42,503 bases of DNA from Chiloscyllium plagiosum (Eukaryota), in the NCBI RefSeq assembly GCF_004010195.1, contig NC_057753.1:1433246-1475748 (forward strand). The letters are read 5' to 3'. Shown here one piece after another: positions 2,476-42,503 of this stretch. A program made the position numbers and the translations under genes. Position 1 is the stretch's first letter; each line of letters begins with the position of its first letter. The notes beneath the pieces were generated by a model, which was given only the letters and a program-made list of their open reading frames with translations, made no database searches and was not told the DNA's origin.

Positions 2476-2484
2476 TTTTGATTT

Positions 2485-2808
2485 TAGATTGGATTCCCTA
2501 CAGTGTGGAAACAGGCCCTGCGGCCCAACAAGTCCACACCAACCATCTGTAGAGTAACCCACCCAGACCCATTCCCCTACTTGATATTTACCCCTGACCA
2601 TTGCACCTAACACTGCGGGCAGTTTAGCATGGCCAATTCACCTGGCCTGCACATCTTTGGAGTGATGGGAGGAAACTGGTGCACCCGGAGGAACCCCACG
2701 CAGACACTGGGAGAGTGTGCAAACTCCACGGACCACGTCTGAAATCAAACCCGGGTCCCTGCCGCTGTGAGACAGCAGTGCTAACCACTGAACCTCCATG
2801 CCGCCCAT
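2485..2808 (-). mobile_element. HE1-like SINE
   Basis: Reverse complement of head, core and GGGCCTGTTTCCACACTGTAGGGAATC tail. Confidence 0.88.
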
Positions 2809-3813: not shown

Positions 3814-3949
3814 CCCAACAAGTTGTTGGTCTGTACCTGCTACTGAAACTCTCTTCCATGTCTGTTTTGCCTTTGACTTGATTCTAATACATTCCTGACC
3901 AGTCTCTCTCAGTCAACCTGCCTACACCTGGAATCATGAGAATTTTGTG

Positions 3950-4240
3950 GATGACATGGCAGCTCAGTGGTTAGCACTGCTGCCTCACAACGCCAGGGAA
4001 CCCAGGTTCGATCCCAGCCTCTGGCGACTGTCTGTGTGGAGTTTGCATGTTCTCCCCATGTCTGTGTGGTTTTCATCTGGGTGCTCTGGTTTCCTCCCAC
4101 AGTCCAAAGTTGTGTAGGTTAGGCGCATTAGTCAGCGGTATATGTAGAGTAATAGGGAATGGGTCTGGGTGGGTTACTCTTTAGAGGGTTGGTGTGGACT
4201 TGTTGGACCTAATGGCCTGTTTCCAGATTGTAGGGATTCT
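3950..4240 (+). mobile_element. HE1-like SINE
   Basis: GCTCAGTGGTTAGCACTGCTGCCTCAC..GGTTCGATCCC head, core and tail. Confidence 0.88.
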
Positions 4241-4576: not shown

Positions 4577-4905
4577 AGATTAGATTACTTTAGATTAGAT
4601 TAGATTACTTACAGTGTGGAAACAGGCCCTTCGGCCCAACAAGTCCACACTGACCCGCCGAAGCGTAACCCACCCATTCTCGTACATTTACCCCTTTACC
4701 TAACTCTACGGGCAATTTAGCATGGCCAATTCACCTTACCTGCACATCTTTGGACTGTGGGAGGAAATCGGGGCACCCGGAGGAAACCCACGCAGACACG
4801 GGGAGAATGTGCAAACTCCACACAGTCAGTCGCCTGAGTCGGGAATTGAACCCAGGTCTCTGGCGCTGTGAGGCAGCAGTGCTAACCACTGTGCCATCGT
4901 GCCAC
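4577..4905 (-). mobile_element. HE1-like SINE (young subfamily, (TCTAA)n tail)
   Basis: Full-length; highly similar to the copy at 38349-38658. Confidence 0.9.
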
Positions 4906-4929
4906 AGCATGATGTCAAATGTTTCTTCA

Positions 4930-25141: not shown

Positions 25142-25421
25142 GAGAGGGGGTGTGAAGAAGGCTTTTGGCATGTTTGCTTTTCTTGGCTAGAGAATTGAGT
25201 ATAGGCGTTGGGATGTCTTGCTGCAGCTGTACAATGCATTGGTGAAGTCACATCTGCAGGACTGCATGCAGTACTGGTCACCCTCCGATAGAAAAGATAT
25301 TAACAAACTAGGAAGAGTTCAGAAAAGATTTACTAGGATGCTACCTGCATTGGAAGGTTTGGGTTATAAGGACAGGTTGGGTAGGCTGGAGCTTAGGAGA
25401 CTGAGGGGTGACCTTATAGAG

Positions 25422-25514
25422 CTGAAAATGTGTTGCTGGAAAAGCACAGCAGATCAGGCAGCATCCAGGGAACAGGAGAATCGACGTTTCGGGCATAAGC
25501 CCTTCTTCAGGAAT
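25422..25514 (-). mobile_element. 93-bp solo PLE terminal unit with intact hammerhead (25483-25510)
   Basis: GTGACCTTATAGAG duplicated at 25408-25421 and 25515-25528; minus strand reads CTGAAGA-A-GGGC TTAT GCCC-GAAACGTC. Confidence 0.88.
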
Positions 25515-26313
25515 GTGACCTTATAGAGGTCTATAAAATCATGAGAGGCATACATAAGGTAGATAGCCAATAGCTTTTCCCCAGGTTAGGGAAATCTAAA
25601 ACTGGAGGGCACAGGTTTAAGATGAGGGGGGGAGAGATACAAAAGGGTCCAGAGGGGCAATAGTTTCACTCGGAGGGTGGTGAGTGTGTGGAACAGGCTG
25701 CCAGAGGGAGTGGTGGAAGCAAGTCCAATTTCACCATTTAAGAAACATTTAAACAGATACAGGGAATGGGATAGGTATGGAGGAATATGGACCAAATGCA
25801 GGCAAATGGGATTAGTTAAATTGTGAGAAGTGGTCAGCATGGACAGGTTGGGCCAATGGGCTGGTTTCCATGCTGTAACCCTCTATTTCCCTATGACTCT
25901 ATTTCCGGTATCTCTAGTCCCAACTGCCCCCTTCTCTCTGTGACCTCTCACTTTCAGACCCTACAGCCATCGAGCTGTGACCCCTGACCCTTCTTTGTTT
26001 TCTCTGCTGGGTGTTGGCAGGGGGTGAAGAAAAGACAGCAGGAATTTCTCTGACCTGTGATTCACAAGGATACTCCCTGCTGCCCTCAGCAGTTACTTTC
26101 CTTCAGTCATTTTCTCACTAACCCTAAACTCTCCTGTTTGCTCTTAATTCTGGTGTTTCTGTCACTTTCACAATTATAGACATAAACGTCACACATTAGA
26201 ATCAAACCGCTTCTGTCATTCTGTCTGATTGAAGTTGGTATTGTCGTTAATAACAGACAAACTATCCTTTTCCCTGGAGTTTCCAATGAAGTGCAGTGGA
26301 CAGTCTTATCAGT

Positions 26314-29375: not shown

Positions 29376-29465
29376 GACTCAGGTTGGGTGTAAGGGGGAG
29401 CTGCAGATAAACAGGTAGCGGGTACGACCTGGTTGGTCAGTGGGAGGAATGAATTCGGTTTTTTT

Positions 29466-29772
29466 AGATTAGATTAGATTCCCTACAGTGTGGAAACAGG
29501 CCCTTCGGCCCAACAAGTCCACACCGACCCTCCGAAGAGTCACCCCCCCAGACCCATTTCCCTCTGACTAATGTACCTAACACTGTGGGCAATTTAGCAT
29601 GGCCAATTCACCTGACCTGCACATCTTTGGACTGTGGGAGGAAACCGGAGCACCTGGGGGAAACCTACGCAGACACGGGGAGAATGTGCAAACTCCACAG
29701 TTGCCTGAGGCTGGAATCGAACCTGGGACCCTGGTGCTGTGAGGCAGCAGTGCTAACCTCTGAGCCACCATG
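29466..29772 (-). mobile_element. HE1-like SINE
   Basis: Full head, core and (TCTAA)n tail. Confidence 0.9.
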
Positions 29773-30139
29773 TTGATGGCAGGGAGCAGTGGTAGAGGGT
29801 AGGGGCTGGGAAGAGAGTCGGGGGATGGGGAGGGAAGTTATTTGAAAGTGGAGAACTCAATGTTGAGTCCTTTGGGCTGTAGGGTGCTCAGGCGGAAAAT
29901 AAGGTGTGTTCTTCCAAGAGGAGCTGTGGTTTATTGTGGCAATGGAGGAGGCCGAGGATGGTCATGTTGGAAAGGGAGCAGTTGGAGGAATTGAAATGGG
30001 CGGTGACTGGGAGATCCAGTCGGTCTCTGCGGGCCCGGTTTCGATGCTCGGTGAGCCATTCCCTGAGCATGCGTTCGGTTTCCTGAATGTAGAGAAGACC
30101 ACATCGGGAGCACCGTATGCAGTAAGCTAGGTTGGAAGA

Positions 30140-35136: not shown

Positions 35137-35218
35137 CAGAGTCAGTAGGATTCGAACCTGTGCAGGGAAACCCCAATGGACTGCAAGTCCATTGCCTTAA
35201 CCACTCAGCCCCAACTAC
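35137..35218 (-). pseudogene. tRNA-Ser-derived pseudogene with TGC at the anticodon position
   Basis: GTAGTTGGGGCTGAGTGGTTAAGGCAATGGACTTGCAGTCCATTGGGGTTTCCCTGCACAGGTTCGAATCCTACTGAC; long variable arm; most CpGs decayed. Confidence 0.85.
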
Positions 35219-36872: not shown

Positions 36873-37815
36873 TTGCCATTGATGTGGTTAACAATAAAAT
36901 GCAATGACACTAGTTACTTGTGAACTCACTGAAGGTTCAGCAGGCTGGATGACTGAGTAAGTCTCTGCTCGCACTCACAGCCCAAGTGAATGGCGACCCT
37001 TAGTGTGATTGTTTAGAAAGTGTGAACAATGTCTTGAACCCAGTGCTGCAGTGATTTCTTGCCACTATGAATACGGTAATGACTGCTCCGTTCCTCAGAA
37101 CATTTTAAAGCACTTTGCACCCTCTGGGCATTTAAAAGATTTCTCAACAGGGTGCTGCCTCAGCAGATGATCCTGACCAATGAATCTCTTTTCACACTCA
37201 AAGCAAGTGAATGGCCCCTACCCCGTGTGGATTCGCATGTGTATCAGCTGGGTGGATGACCGAATGAATCCTTCCCCACCCTCAGAACATCTGAAAGGCA
37301 TTCCCCAGTGTGAAATCGCTGATGTAGCACGAAAGTGGATGACTGAGAGAATGCCTTCCTCCGCTCAGGCCAGGTGAATGGCTTCTCCCCAGTGTGAACC
37401 CACTGATGTACAGTGAGTTCACATGATCGCTTGAACCTGCGACCCGCAGCAACAACACTCGAACGGTTTCTCATCAGTGTGAAAGAATTTGATGGGTTGT
37501 CAGTGCCGTGGAACATTTTTTTTTAGCATTTGCTGCAGTCTGTCCATTTAAATATTCTCTCCCCAGTGTGAACTCGTTTATATGTCAGCAACTGGTGTGA
37601 TTTAGTGAAAAACGTCTCACACTCAGAACAGCTGAACTGCTTCTCCCGAGTGTGAACTCACTGGTGTTCATCAGTGATGTCAGATCCTTGCTTTAAGTCA
37701 GTCCAACTGAGACGTCAAGGGGTTAATTTGCTCTGCTGACCTTCAAGAAATTGGTGTCCCGGGGTGGGGTGGGTATGTTTCTCAGTCTTGCAGGTAGAAT
37801 GTAAAAAAAAATTAA

Positions 37816-39340
37816 TTGTCAGCTCCTACTATTCGGAGTAAATCTACATCGTCATCTCCTGCTATTCAGAGTAAATCTATATTGTCATCTCCTGCTATTC
37901 AGAGTAAATCTACATTGTCACCTCCTGCTATTCAGAGTAAATTTACATTGTCATCTCCTGCTATTCAGAGTAAATTTACATTGTCATTTCCTGCTATTCA
38001 GAGTAAATCTACATTGTCACGTCCTGCTATTCAGAGGAAGTTTACATTGTCATCTCCTGCTATTCAGAGTAAATCTATATCGTCATTTCCTGCTATTCAG
38101 AGTAAATCTATATTGTAATCTCCTGCTTTTTGGAGTAAATCTATATTCATCTCCAGCTATTCAGAGTACATTTACATTGTCATCTCCTGCTATTCAGAGT
38201 AAATTTACATTGTCATTTCCTGCTATTCAGAGTAAATTTACATTGTCATTTCCTGCTATTCAGAGTAAATCTATATTGTCATCTCCTGCTATTCAGAGTA
38301 AATTTACATTATCATCTCTTGCTATTCAGAGTAAATCTATATTTTTTGTTAGATTACATTACAGTGTGGAAACAGGCCCTTCGGCCCAACAAGTCCACAC
38401 TGACCCGCCGAAGCGCAACTCACCCATACCCCTACATTTACCCCTTTAACCTAACACTACGGGCAATTTAGCATGGCCAATTCACCTTACCTGCACATCT
38501 TTGGACTGGGGGAGGAAACCGGAGCACCCGGAGGAAACCAACGCAGACACGGGGAGAACGTGCAAACTCCACACAGTCAGTCACCTGAGGCGGGAATTCA
38601 ACCCGGGTCTCTGGCGCTGTGAGGCAGCAGTGCTAACCACTGTGCCACCGTGCCGCCCTTATAGTCCCTCCTCGTACCCTTTTCAAGTTAGGCCATTCAT
38701 CTCCTGCTTTTTGGAGTAAATCTATATTCATCTCCAGCTATTCAGAGTACATTTACATTGTCACCTCCTGCTATTCAGAGTAAATTTACATTGTCATTTC
38801 CTGCTATTCAGAGTAAATCTACATTATCATCTCCTGCTATTCAGAGTAAATCTATATTGTCATCTCCTGCTATTCAGAGTAAATTTACATTGTCATTTCC
38901 TGCTATTCAGAGTAAATCTACATCGTCATTTCCTGCTATTCAGAGTAAATCTCTCTTGTCATCCCCTGCTATTCAGAGTAAATTTACATTTTCATCTCCT
39001 GCTATTCAGAGTAAATTTACATTGTCATCCCCTGCTATTCAGAATAAATCTACATTGTCATCTCCTGCTATTCAGAGTAAATCTATATTGTCATCCCCTG
39101 CTATTCAGAGTAAATCTACATTATCATCCCCTGCTATTCAGAGTAAATCTACATTATCATCCCCTGCTATTCAGAGTAAATTTACATTGTCATCTCCTGC
39201 TATTCGGAGTAAATTTACATTGTCATCTCCTGCTATTCAGAGTAAATCTATATTGTCGTCATCTGCTATTCAGAGTAAATCTACATTGTCACCTCCTGGT
39301 ATTCAGAGTAAATTTACATTGTCATCTCCTGCTATTCCAA
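37816..39340. repeat. 33-bp minisatellite (TCATCTCCTGCTATTCAGAGTAAAT[C/T]TACATTG), about 35 units, interrupted by a SINE
   Basis: Direct inspection; 11-aa periodicity SSPAIQSKFTL in the ORF track. Confidence 0.97.
38349..38658 (-). mobile_element. HE1-like SINE (young) inside the minisatellite
   Basis: Full-length, CpG-rich GGGCGGCACGGTGGCACAGTGG head. Confidence 0.92.
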
Positions 39341-39979
39341 ATCAATAAAACCATTGCAGTTAAAATTCTGAACACACCCTGCAATAAAAACCAATTTACA
39401 TTAAATCTTGCCATTAAGGGATGATTTATATCTTATTGTTTCTGGAAAAAAGCAAATCACTACATTGTGTTTTGAATGGCTTGTGACTATGGGGAAGTGG
39501 CTGGGGGTTGTCCTGTGGGCAATCCTGGCTGTGATGTAAAAGGGAGGACTGTCCCCTTACTCAGGGAGATCTCTTCACATGGCTTCGCAAGCATTGCAAA
39601 GAATATTAAGGGTTCCTCCAAAGCCTGTACTTGCTTAAGATAGTTTGGTTTTTCACAGAAGTTAGCATCAAGTGTGTAAGAATCTTAAAAAAAGAACCTA
39701 ACACCACAGTGATAGCATCTGAAAGGTCTCTCACTGATGTGAACATGCTGACTGGACATTCATTCTTCTGAGTGCTTATTGCACTCTCCACAGTTTGGAC
39801 ATCGAAACACTCTCTCCTCAGAGTGCATTGTCTGGTGTATCAGCAGCTTGGTTGACTGGGTGATTCCCTTTCCACAATCAGGGCAGGTTAGAGGTCTCCC
39901 TCGTGTGAAGTTGCCTGTGAGCAGTGAGCTTAGATGAACGCCTGCACCTTTTTCCGCAGTGTCTGGTCTCTCAGCATGA

Positions 39980-41872: not shown

Positions 41873-42092
41873 TGAGGAGAAAGTGAGGTCTGCAGATGCT
41901 GGAGATCAGAGCTGAAAATGTGTTGCTGGAAAAGCGCAGCAGGTCAGGCAGCATCCAGGGAACAGGAGAATCGACGTTTCAGGCATAAGCCTGATTCCTG
42001 AAGAAGGGCTTATGCCCGAAACGTCGATTCTCCTGTTCCCTGGATGCTGCCTGACCTGCTGCGCTTTTCCAGCAACACATTTTCAGCTCTGA
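41873..42092. mobile_element. Young palindromic PLE-derived mini-element, family A
   Basis: Perfect 75-bp inverted arms at 41906-41980 and 42018-42092; TCTGAACCAGACTCTT at 41857-41872 and 42088-42103. Confidence 0.92.
41998..42025 (+). ncRNA. Minimal type I hammerhead ribozyme motif (intact)
   Basis: CTGAAGA-A-GGGC TTAT GCCC-GAAACGTC; predicted GUC cleavage after 42025. Confidence 0.78.
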
Positions 42093-42268: not shown

Positions 42269-42503
42269 GGGAGAAAGTGAGAACTGCAGATGCTGGAGAT
42301 CAGAGCTGAAAATGTGTTGCTGGAAAAGTGCAGCAGGTCAGTCAGCATCCAAGGAGCAGGACAATCGACGTTTCGGGCATGAGTCCTTCTTCAGGAATGA
42401 GGAGAGTGTGCCAAACAGGCTAAGATAAAAGGTAGGGAGGAGGGACTTGGGGGAGGGGCATTGGAAATGCAATAGGTGGAAGGAGGTTAAGGTGAGGGTG
42501 ATA
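42269..42503 (-). mobile_element. PLE family A 3' end running off the window; hammerhead at 42367-42394
   Basis: Same terminal repeat, continuing into a purine-rich element body. Confidence 0.85.

What the first reader, a model, noticed from the sequence alone, without database searches (positions are those of the whole stretch)
25408..25528. A 93-bp ribozyme-only insertion with a perfect 14-bp TSD
Seen: the unit sits inside a CR1 whose sequence (GGGGTGACCTTATAGAGGT) defines the empty site exactly. On the minus strand it starts 4 nt before the hammerhead core (ATTC-CTGAAGA) and ends where the element's AGAG coincides with the target. It corresponds to the short arm of the palindromes. Inference: this is the minimal mobile unit. 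Its 5' end lies upstream of the predicted cleavage site, so it is not a simple copy of a 3' cleavage product and implies a tandem or circular template or a template jump.
Basis: partly seen in the sequence, partly recalled or inferred. Interest (0 to 1): 0.72.

Follow-up and report, generated by a model that had tools for sequence, protein, structure and literature searches.

The report
Solo stump of shark Penelope retroelement
The 93-bp insert is a real but ordinary short copy of the hammerhead-bearing end of a very abundant shark Penelope-type retrotransposon, and the shared edges of such copies probably mark where the element's RNA starts and where its reverse transcriptase begins.

Summary
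In detail: 93 bp (25422-25514), exact 14-bp duplication, inside a LINE, with a minimal hammerhead on the minus strand. The unit is not a circular-RNA retrozyme. It is one solo arm of the pseudo-LTR of a Neptune-type Penelope-like element (PLE), with at least 78,142 arms in this 3.56-Gb shark genome. Longer copies run into a GIY-YIG gene, and a full pLTR-ORF-pLTR relative was found. 3' ends fall at two sites bracketing the known PLE 'tail' (60 and 42 of 102 arms); this unit uses the inner one. 5' ends pile up at the A of ATTC (+1): 2,835 genome-wide, against 64 at a control position and 177 at the ribozyme cut. Head-to-tail joints number only 21. In the young subfamily 58% of +1 ends carry a G at -1 (28% expected), as a copied mRNA cap would give; older subfamilies share the boundary but not clearly the G. 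Best reading: reverse transcription primed inside uncleaved PLE RNA ran off its capped 5' end, so no circle or tandem is needed. The scan noted this family's palindromes before, elsewhere in this genome.

The parts
25408..25421 (.). Target-site duplication, left copy (14 bp); its last 4 bases equal element positions +97..+94 (microhomology at the priming end)
25422..25514 (-). Solo short pLTR arm of a Neptune-type PLE, element positions +1 (25514) to +93 (25422)
25479..25514 (-). Minimal type I hammerhead (+1..+36): helix I 4 bp with a U.U mismatch, core 25510-25504, helix II 4 bp, no monomeric helix III; predicted cut between 25483 and 25482
   Evidence: layout as in PMC4209133; cleavage not tested
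25514..25514 (-). +1: family-wide 5' boundary, inferred capped transcription start (context TC-A-TTCC in continuing copies)
   Evidence: start site inferred, not shown on RNA
25422..25478 (-). PLE leader between the hammerhead and the inner reverse-transcription start; the ~37-nt tail that follows in long arms is absent
25515..25528 (.). Target-site duplication, right copy (14 bp)
25142..25890 (+). Host LINE 3' portion, about 65-74% like other copies ('CR1' recalled); bounds approximate, assembly gap on the left
41873..42092 (.). Inverted pair of the same young subfamily: outer arm (+14..+132) and inner arm (+1..+99), 16-bp duplication, junction TG before +1 with G templated by neither arm
42270..42503 (-). 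Tail-bearing arm that continues past +1 into the PLE 3' UTR (to -105, window end)

Best explanation
The unit is a solo, tail-less pLTR arm made by the enzyme of an autonomous Neptune-type Penelope-like element. Steps: (1) shown: the family is a PLE with hammerhead, tail, ORF start, RT, Zn linker and GIY-YIG; (2) shown in genome, matching published biochemistry: the target is nicked about 10-16 bp apart and cDNA starts at one of two internal RNA sites (about +93 or +130); two productive starts give the palindromes, one gives a solo; here the inner site primed with 4 nt of microhomology; (3) shown: the template was not cut at the hammerhead; (4) inferred: the RNA begins, capped, at +1, the first base of the hammerhead, so priming on the leader at the mRNA's 5' end gives a 93-130-nt run-off cDNA, often with a cap-copied base, which is joined to the other target end. 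This copy has no extra G; it joins through a 1-nt C or bluntly. Confidence by step: PLE identity 0.97, inner-start priming 0.9, run-off at a capped start 0.65.
For: GIY-YIG upstream of +1 in longer copies (PF01541, E 3.5e-5; shark homologs at 84% and 75%). Full pLTR-ORF-pLTR relative L071: pLTR 80% like the unit, ATG about 170 nt after +1, 3' copy ending at the inner site. Young-subfamily copy L065 and older copy L056 run from pLTR through the tail into the ORF start, so the leader lies at the 5' end of the coding RNA. 3' ends: 60 of 102 at +85..+101, 42 at +125..+135, none between. 22 of 24 inverted pairs have one inner and one outer arm. 5' ends: 51 of 94 within -5..+5, 21 exactly at +1. Genome-wide 1,656 G plus 1,179 A/T ends at +1 against 64 at -7, of which 15 G (Fisher p 2e-8). 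Mutation of the templated C gives G in only 17 of 100. Sample: G in 15 of 21 (p 5e-5), solos alone 8 of 14 (p 0.02; solos sorted by eye), G untemplated by either arm in L011, L067 and window 41993. 5,380 palindromes have both arms ending at or near +1. 12 of 12 inspected older-subfamily copies also stop at +1. An untemplated G is read as a copied cap for L1 (PMC9341517 passages).
Against: No RNA 5' end was seen: poly(A) single-cell reads (1,817 laid from one run, 0 from the other) come from both strands and 76% run into unlike flanks; no start pile-up was listed. The G excess is not replicated in older CUGAUGA subfamilies: 43 G of the first 100 G/A rows against 44% expected (35 of 63 outside CpG context, p 0.04); in the 12 inspected, A often came from the partner arm. 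Some G's in the young set are also supplied by the partner arm or target. 11 of 43 arms stopping near +1 end at -2..-5. L071's 5' pLTR starts about 11 nt before +1. 7 of 16 solo inner-arm units lack a duplication of 8 bp or more. The sample was picked by a pattern covering +1..+39, comes from the first 12 Mb of one contig, and drops arms beside assembly gaps. The -7 control pattern is 7 bases longer and subfamily-specific, so the 44-fold ratio is approximate.
Confidence: 0.68

Rival explanations
1. Truncation hotspot without a transcription start: cDNA is primed on the 3' pLTR copy of a long read-through RNA and stalls or is trimmed at the 5' edge of the folded or protein-bound hammerhead; the G comes from non-templated addition or junction bias.
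For: 37 of 82 anchored arms pass +1 into the body; ends scatter over -5..+5; the G excess is weak in older subfamilies; the PLE protein assists hammerhead folding in vitro (PMC11167929).
Against: An RT moving 3' to 5' meets the fold at +36, not +1, and helix I is only 4 bp with a mismatch. Ends at -7 show no G excess (15 of 64). The +1 context fits a YYANWYY initiator (consensus recalled) in two subfamilies.
Confidence: 0.22
2. One reading: an independent retrozyme-like unit copied from a circular or tandem RNA made by hammerhead cleavage.
For: Non-LTR retrozymes with type I hammerheads exist in animals and derive from PLE pLTRs (PMC7229834 passages; 10.64898/2026.07.22.740005); 21 head-to-tail joints exist.
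Against: 21 joints against at least 78,142 arms. A rolling-circle template predicts multimers and permuted ends, but ends sit at +1 and at two fixed 3' sites. The hammerhead is the weak minimal type. No back-joint was listed among raw reads, though a poly(A) library is a poor test.
Confidence: 0.05
3. +1 is a 3' splice site, as in D. virilis Penelope where the intron ends at the 5' end of helix I, and the G is the last base of an upstream exon.
For: PMC4209133 states this for D. virilis; AG is the commonest dinucleotide before +1, where only AG or CG could match.
Against: The genomic bases before +1 are CTC or TTT, not AG. In the sample TG is as common as AG (6 and 6 of 15), and the bases further upstream are target or partner-arm sequence, not a shared exon.
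Confidence: 0.03

Closest known systems
Penelope-like elements, Neptune clade: pLTR with inverted arm and optional 30-40-bp tail (PMC8557442 and PMC3846280, passages)
   Same: pLTR-ORF-pLTR layout, C-terminal GIY-YIG with a Zn-finger-like linker, head-to-head inverted arms, tail at one end only, duplications of about 8-16 bp, solo pLTRs.
   Different: Here the 5' boundary is a sharp family-wide site with a G excess, and solos usually keep a duplication; the rotifer passage ascribes duplication-less solo pLTRs to recombination or deletion.
Anolis Poseidon PAc in vitro system (PMC11167929; abstract, main text, start of methods)
   Same: Two internal RT starts bracketing the tail; both target strands primed; hammerhead cleavage not needed; no reads ending at the cut.
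   Different: That work saw no difference in start site between strands in vitro, whereas 22 of 24 genomic pairs here use one inner and one outer start. It proposes a multi-copy mRNA and does not map a capped start at the hammerhead.
Minimal hammerheads of metazoan PLEs (PMC4209133; results and discussion)
   Same: Short helix I, extra base between 9 and 10.1, G10.1-C11.1, palindromic 15.2/16.2 with no helix III loop; most copies genome-wide are single or on opposite strands nearby.
   Different: Helix II is 4 bp rather than 7-8; that paper proposes circular templates, which the boundaries here do not support.
Non-LTR retrozymes (PMC7229834 passages; bioRxiv 10.64898/2026.07.22.740005 parts 1-3 of 5)
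   Same: Non-coding, type I hammerhead, PLE pLTR ancestry, duplications longer than 4 bp.
   Different: Retrozymes are head-to-tail tandems expressed as circles; this unit is solo or head-to-head, with 21 head-to-tail joints genome-wide.

Membership tests
Penelope-like element (EN+) | Contiguous with an ORF encoding RT and C-terminal GIY-YIG | tested here: met
   L020 GIY-YIG upstream of +1; L071 full element, homolog P0004 hits RVT_1 weakly (E 0.008) and GIY-YIG
Penelope-like element (EN+) | pLTR repeated at both ends of the ORF; partial tandems | tested here: met
   L071 pLTR at 514-640 and about 3900-3995; L056 and L065 partial tandems
Penelope-like element (EN+) | Optional 30-40-bp tail at one end; inverted 5' arm | tested here: met
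   3' ends at two sites about 37 nt apart; 22 of 24 pairs inner+outer
Penelope-like element (EN+) | Minimal hammerhead in the pLTR | tested here: met
   Motif layout and pair counts; Rfam gave no hit; activity untested
Neptune clade | Zn-finger-like motif between RT and EN | tested here: met
   Cys motifs FPCNCRRCKTC in L044 and CHCRNCKTC in L071; criterion from PMC8557442 passage, which says Nematis shares it
Neptune clade | RT phylogeny places it in Neptune rather than Nematis | not tested
   No reference PLE set on hand; clade name rests on the linker and on recalled C-terminal motifs
Non-LTR retrozyme | Head-to-tail tandem units each with a hammerhead | tested here: not met
   21 joints genome-wide within 30 nt of the inner end; joints after a complete tail lie beyond that pattern
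Non-LTR retrozyme | Expressed as monomeric circular RNA | not testable with these tools
   Only poly(A) raw reads were available; no back-joint listed
Non-LTR retrozyme | Canonical type I hammerhead, efficient self-cleavage | tested here: inconclusive
   The motif is the minimal type; cleavage cannot be assayed here

The most novel reading that the evidence does not exclude
PLE reverse transcription starts like a retroviral strong stop. The mRNA is capped at the first base of the hammerhead; a dimeric enzyme primes both target nicks on the 5' leader (one at the inner, one at the outer site) and makes 93/130-nt cDNAs. These either integrate as solos and palindromes or jump to the RNA's 3' end, where the hammerhead cut at +32 would define a short terminal repeat (+1..+32). 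That would explain pLTRs, tails and the ribozyme's role together. Not excluded, but one prediction failed: copies that continue upstream show no G at -1 (17 of 100), so any transfer would have to precede or remove the cap-copied base.
Probability: 0.17. Interest if true: 0.75.

Novelty: new member of a known kind. Interest (0 to 1): 0.4.

Why it matters
The insert itself is one of thousands of stumps and is not a new kind of element. Its value is as a natural read-out of a poorly understood cycle. Tens of thousands of young shark copies give base-level maps of both RT starts and of the template's 5' end. They suggest a capped start at the hammerhead's first base and near-strict inner/outer pairing of the two primers. 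Both can be tested directly with 5' mapping and the existing in vitro PLE assay, and they argue against circular templates for this family.

Tried and rejected
Rfam scan: no hammerhead family hit in the window. DNA search of the genome with the unit found nothing because common words are skipped; pattern counts were used instead. Pfam on the first 83-aa piece: 0 families. Minimum-energy folds of the monomer and of a two-copy cofold did not return the hammerhead core, as expected for a minimal motif; not used as evidence. Sequencing runs: no RNA holder listed; the read lay was uninformative on starts and circles, its loose ends at +1, +90, +95 and +129 only mirror genomic boundaries. Cleavage after the CUC triplet just before +1 as the source of the 5' end: rejected by inspection, since neither helix I nor III can pair in that register and it gives no G. 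Strand transfer after cap copying: test negative. Replicating the G excess in older subfamilies: inconclusive to negative. Earlier findings near this place and by sequence: none. Literature searches showed no paper mapping a capped start or extra G at PLE 5' ends. Subscription papers, Repbase, the older PLE reviews and the preprint's supplements were not seen and may hold a description of this shark family or of the boundary.

Full report
Observation. The insert is 25422-25514 (93 bp) between two identical 14-mers at 25408-25421 and 25515-25528. Removing it restores a LINE frame; 34 other LINE copies span the site, 23 gap-free. 'CR1' is a recalled label. I number the minus strand from the A of ATTC (25514 = +1). 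The hammerhead is +1..+36 with the predicted cut after +32. It has the minimal layout described for PLEs in PMC4209133 (parts 1-2 of 4 read). In 15 hand-picked copies 83.5% of cells pair, against 8-50% when slid, but only one pair changes on both sides and 24 of 500 shuffles reach the same percentage, so covariation support is thin. Rfam has no hit.

What it belongs to. The window holds about ten related loci, many of them palindromes with one arm longer by about 37 nt. The genome (3.56 Gb) has 46,911 matches to a 39-nt piece (up to 1 mismatch) and 78,142 exact matches to a 31-nt piece. Copies that continue past +1 run into a 3' UTR and a GIY-YIG domain, whose closest database proteins are named Chiloscyllium punctatum (84% and 75%). 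Searching the genome with one of them led to L071, a pLTR-ORF-pLTR element of a sister subfamily with an internal assembly gap and a stop codon. It shows a pLTR, tail, ATG about 170 nt after +1, RT, Cys-rich linker, GIY-YIG, and a 3' pLTR that ends without the tail. L065 (young subfamily) and L056 are partial tandems: pLTR, tail, ORF start, then a jump to a second pLTR. This is the PLE anatomy given in PMC8557442 and PMC3846280 (passages). The Neptune assignment rests on the linker, not on a tree.

3' boundary. In 69 loci plus the window (L016 dropped as a duplicate of L015; arms under 88% identity or beside gaps left out), 60 of 102 arms end at +85..+101 and 42 at +125..+135, none between. 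22 of 24 inverted pairs have one inner and one outer arm; the other two are the partial tandems. Several outer arms stop at +94..+107, where the inner primer starts, which suggests both primers can use one RNA (inference). PMC11167929 (parts 1-2 of 4) showed in vitro that a PLE enzyme primes on both strands at two internal sites bracketing the tail and uses uncleaved RNA. The finding's unit is an inner-start arm with 4 nt of microhomology.

Duplications. Among 31 solo arms with clean flanks, 9 of 16 inner and 7 of 8 outer arms starting near +1 have a duplication of 8-16 bp, as do 2 of 7 longer arms; mismatched flank pairs gave 1 of 300. A 14-bp duplication is therefore normal for the family.

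5' boundary. Of 82 arms carrying +1..+39, 37 continue upstream, 43 stop near +1 (3 of these belong to another subfamily and in fact continue) and 2 abut gaps; 21 stop exactly at +1. The sample was chosen by that pattern, so downstream ends are under-counted. Genome-wide patterns demanding two non-consensus bases at the junction gave 1,656 + 1,179 ends at +1, 64 at -7 and 177 at the ribozyme cut. 5,380 palindromes have both arms ending at or within a few bases of +1; in the first 50, the commonest centres were GGA(A/T)TCC (11), GGAAT(G/C)ATTCC (7) and GGAATTCC (4) (counted by eye). Head-to-tail joints within 30 nt of the inner end number 21. So cleavage products and circles are not the usual template.

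The G. At +1 ends of the young subfamily the base at -1 is G in 58% against 28% expected from composition, 15 of 64 at the control position and 17 of 100 by mutation in continuing copies. In the sample it is 15 of 21, and 8 of 14 for solos alone. The G is often shared with the target as GA/GAT/GATT microhomology and in three inversions is supplied by neither arm. For L1 such a G is read as a reverse-transcribed cap (PMC9341517, passages). The context in continuing copies fits an initiator (consensus recalled), and PLE promoters lie in the pLTR (PMC2377424, PMC8557442, PMC3846280, passages). Against: older CUGAUGA subfamilies show the same boundary (1,437 matches; 12 of 12 inspected stop at +1) but only 43 G in the first 100 G/A rows, with A often taken from the partner arm and CpG decay removing some G. 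11 arms end at -2..-5, and L071 begins at about -11. RNA reads gave no start site.

Mechanism. The simplest account is priming at the inner site of uncleaved PLE RNA and run-off at a capped +1, then joining to the second nick. Shown: family, both boundary sets, uncut template, duplications. Inferred: the cap and start site, and that priming was on the 5' leader. The main rival is a stall or trimming site at the hammerhead's edge on long RNA (0.22). The circle model (0.05) and a splice site (0.03) fit poorly. The bolder extension, strong-stop cDNA with transfer over a +1..+32 repeat, is not excluded (0.17), but its one testable prediction failed.

Known or new. PLE solos, inverted pLTRs, tails and minimal hammerheads are published, and retrozymes are proposed to derive from pLTRs (PMC7229834 passages; bioRxiv 10.64898/2026.07.22.740005 parts 1-3 of 5; its supplements were not seen). 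An earlier scan note on another piece of this genome reached the same family call for the palindromes. My searches found no report of a cap-type G or start site at the hammerhead's first base, but much older PLE literature is outside the library. Verdict: new member of a known kind; interest 0.4, carried by the mechanistic read-out rather than by the unit.

Noticed in passing
L065:2466-2891, L056:2474-3011: Partial tandems in which a cDNA reaching about +1 restarts inside the ORF's first 250-400 nt; direct evidence of template jumps, with a third, inverted arm at the far end.
   Followed up: partly
L013, L021, L056, L065 (outer arms starting at +94..+107): Outer arms that stop where the inner primer starts, like L1 twin priming on one RNA.
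   Followed up: partly
palindrome centres; L005, L047, L051: Many junctions carry short inserts copied from helix II or nearby leader (GGGCT/AGCCC-like), suggesting repeated slippage before the two cDNA ends join.
   Followed up: no
element -31..-25 (L054:2482-2490; L071 about 3875): TTATCT, a reverse GATA-type site, is kept about 30 nt upstream of +1 in both subfamilies, where a TATA box would lie; possible promoter element (speculative).
   Followed up: no
window 41991, L011, L067: Three partner arms end at +14, each joined to a +1 arm through an untemplated G; possible second stop at helix II.
   Followed up: no
G000:C16:42817619-42817923: A tandem array with a period of about 47 nt that contains the element's +33..+53 stretch; a minisatellite born from the pLTR.
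   Followed up: no
window 37683-39350: A 33-bp minisatellite array interrupted at about 38340-38660 by a SINE-like repeat.
   Followed up: no
window 35137-35218 (-): tRNA-like sequence just under the Rfam threshold (28.1 bits, E 0.07); tRNA pseudogene or SINE head.
   Followed up: no
window 2476-2806, 4587-4907, 29461-29780, 38337-38658 and others: About a dozen copies of a ~320-bp SINE-like repeat (HE1-like, label recalled) and many LINE 3' ends fill the window.
   Followed up: no
window 41941-42057: The palindrome scores weakly as a microRNA hairpin; such inverted pairs could yield double-stranded RNA when transcribed.
   Followed up: no
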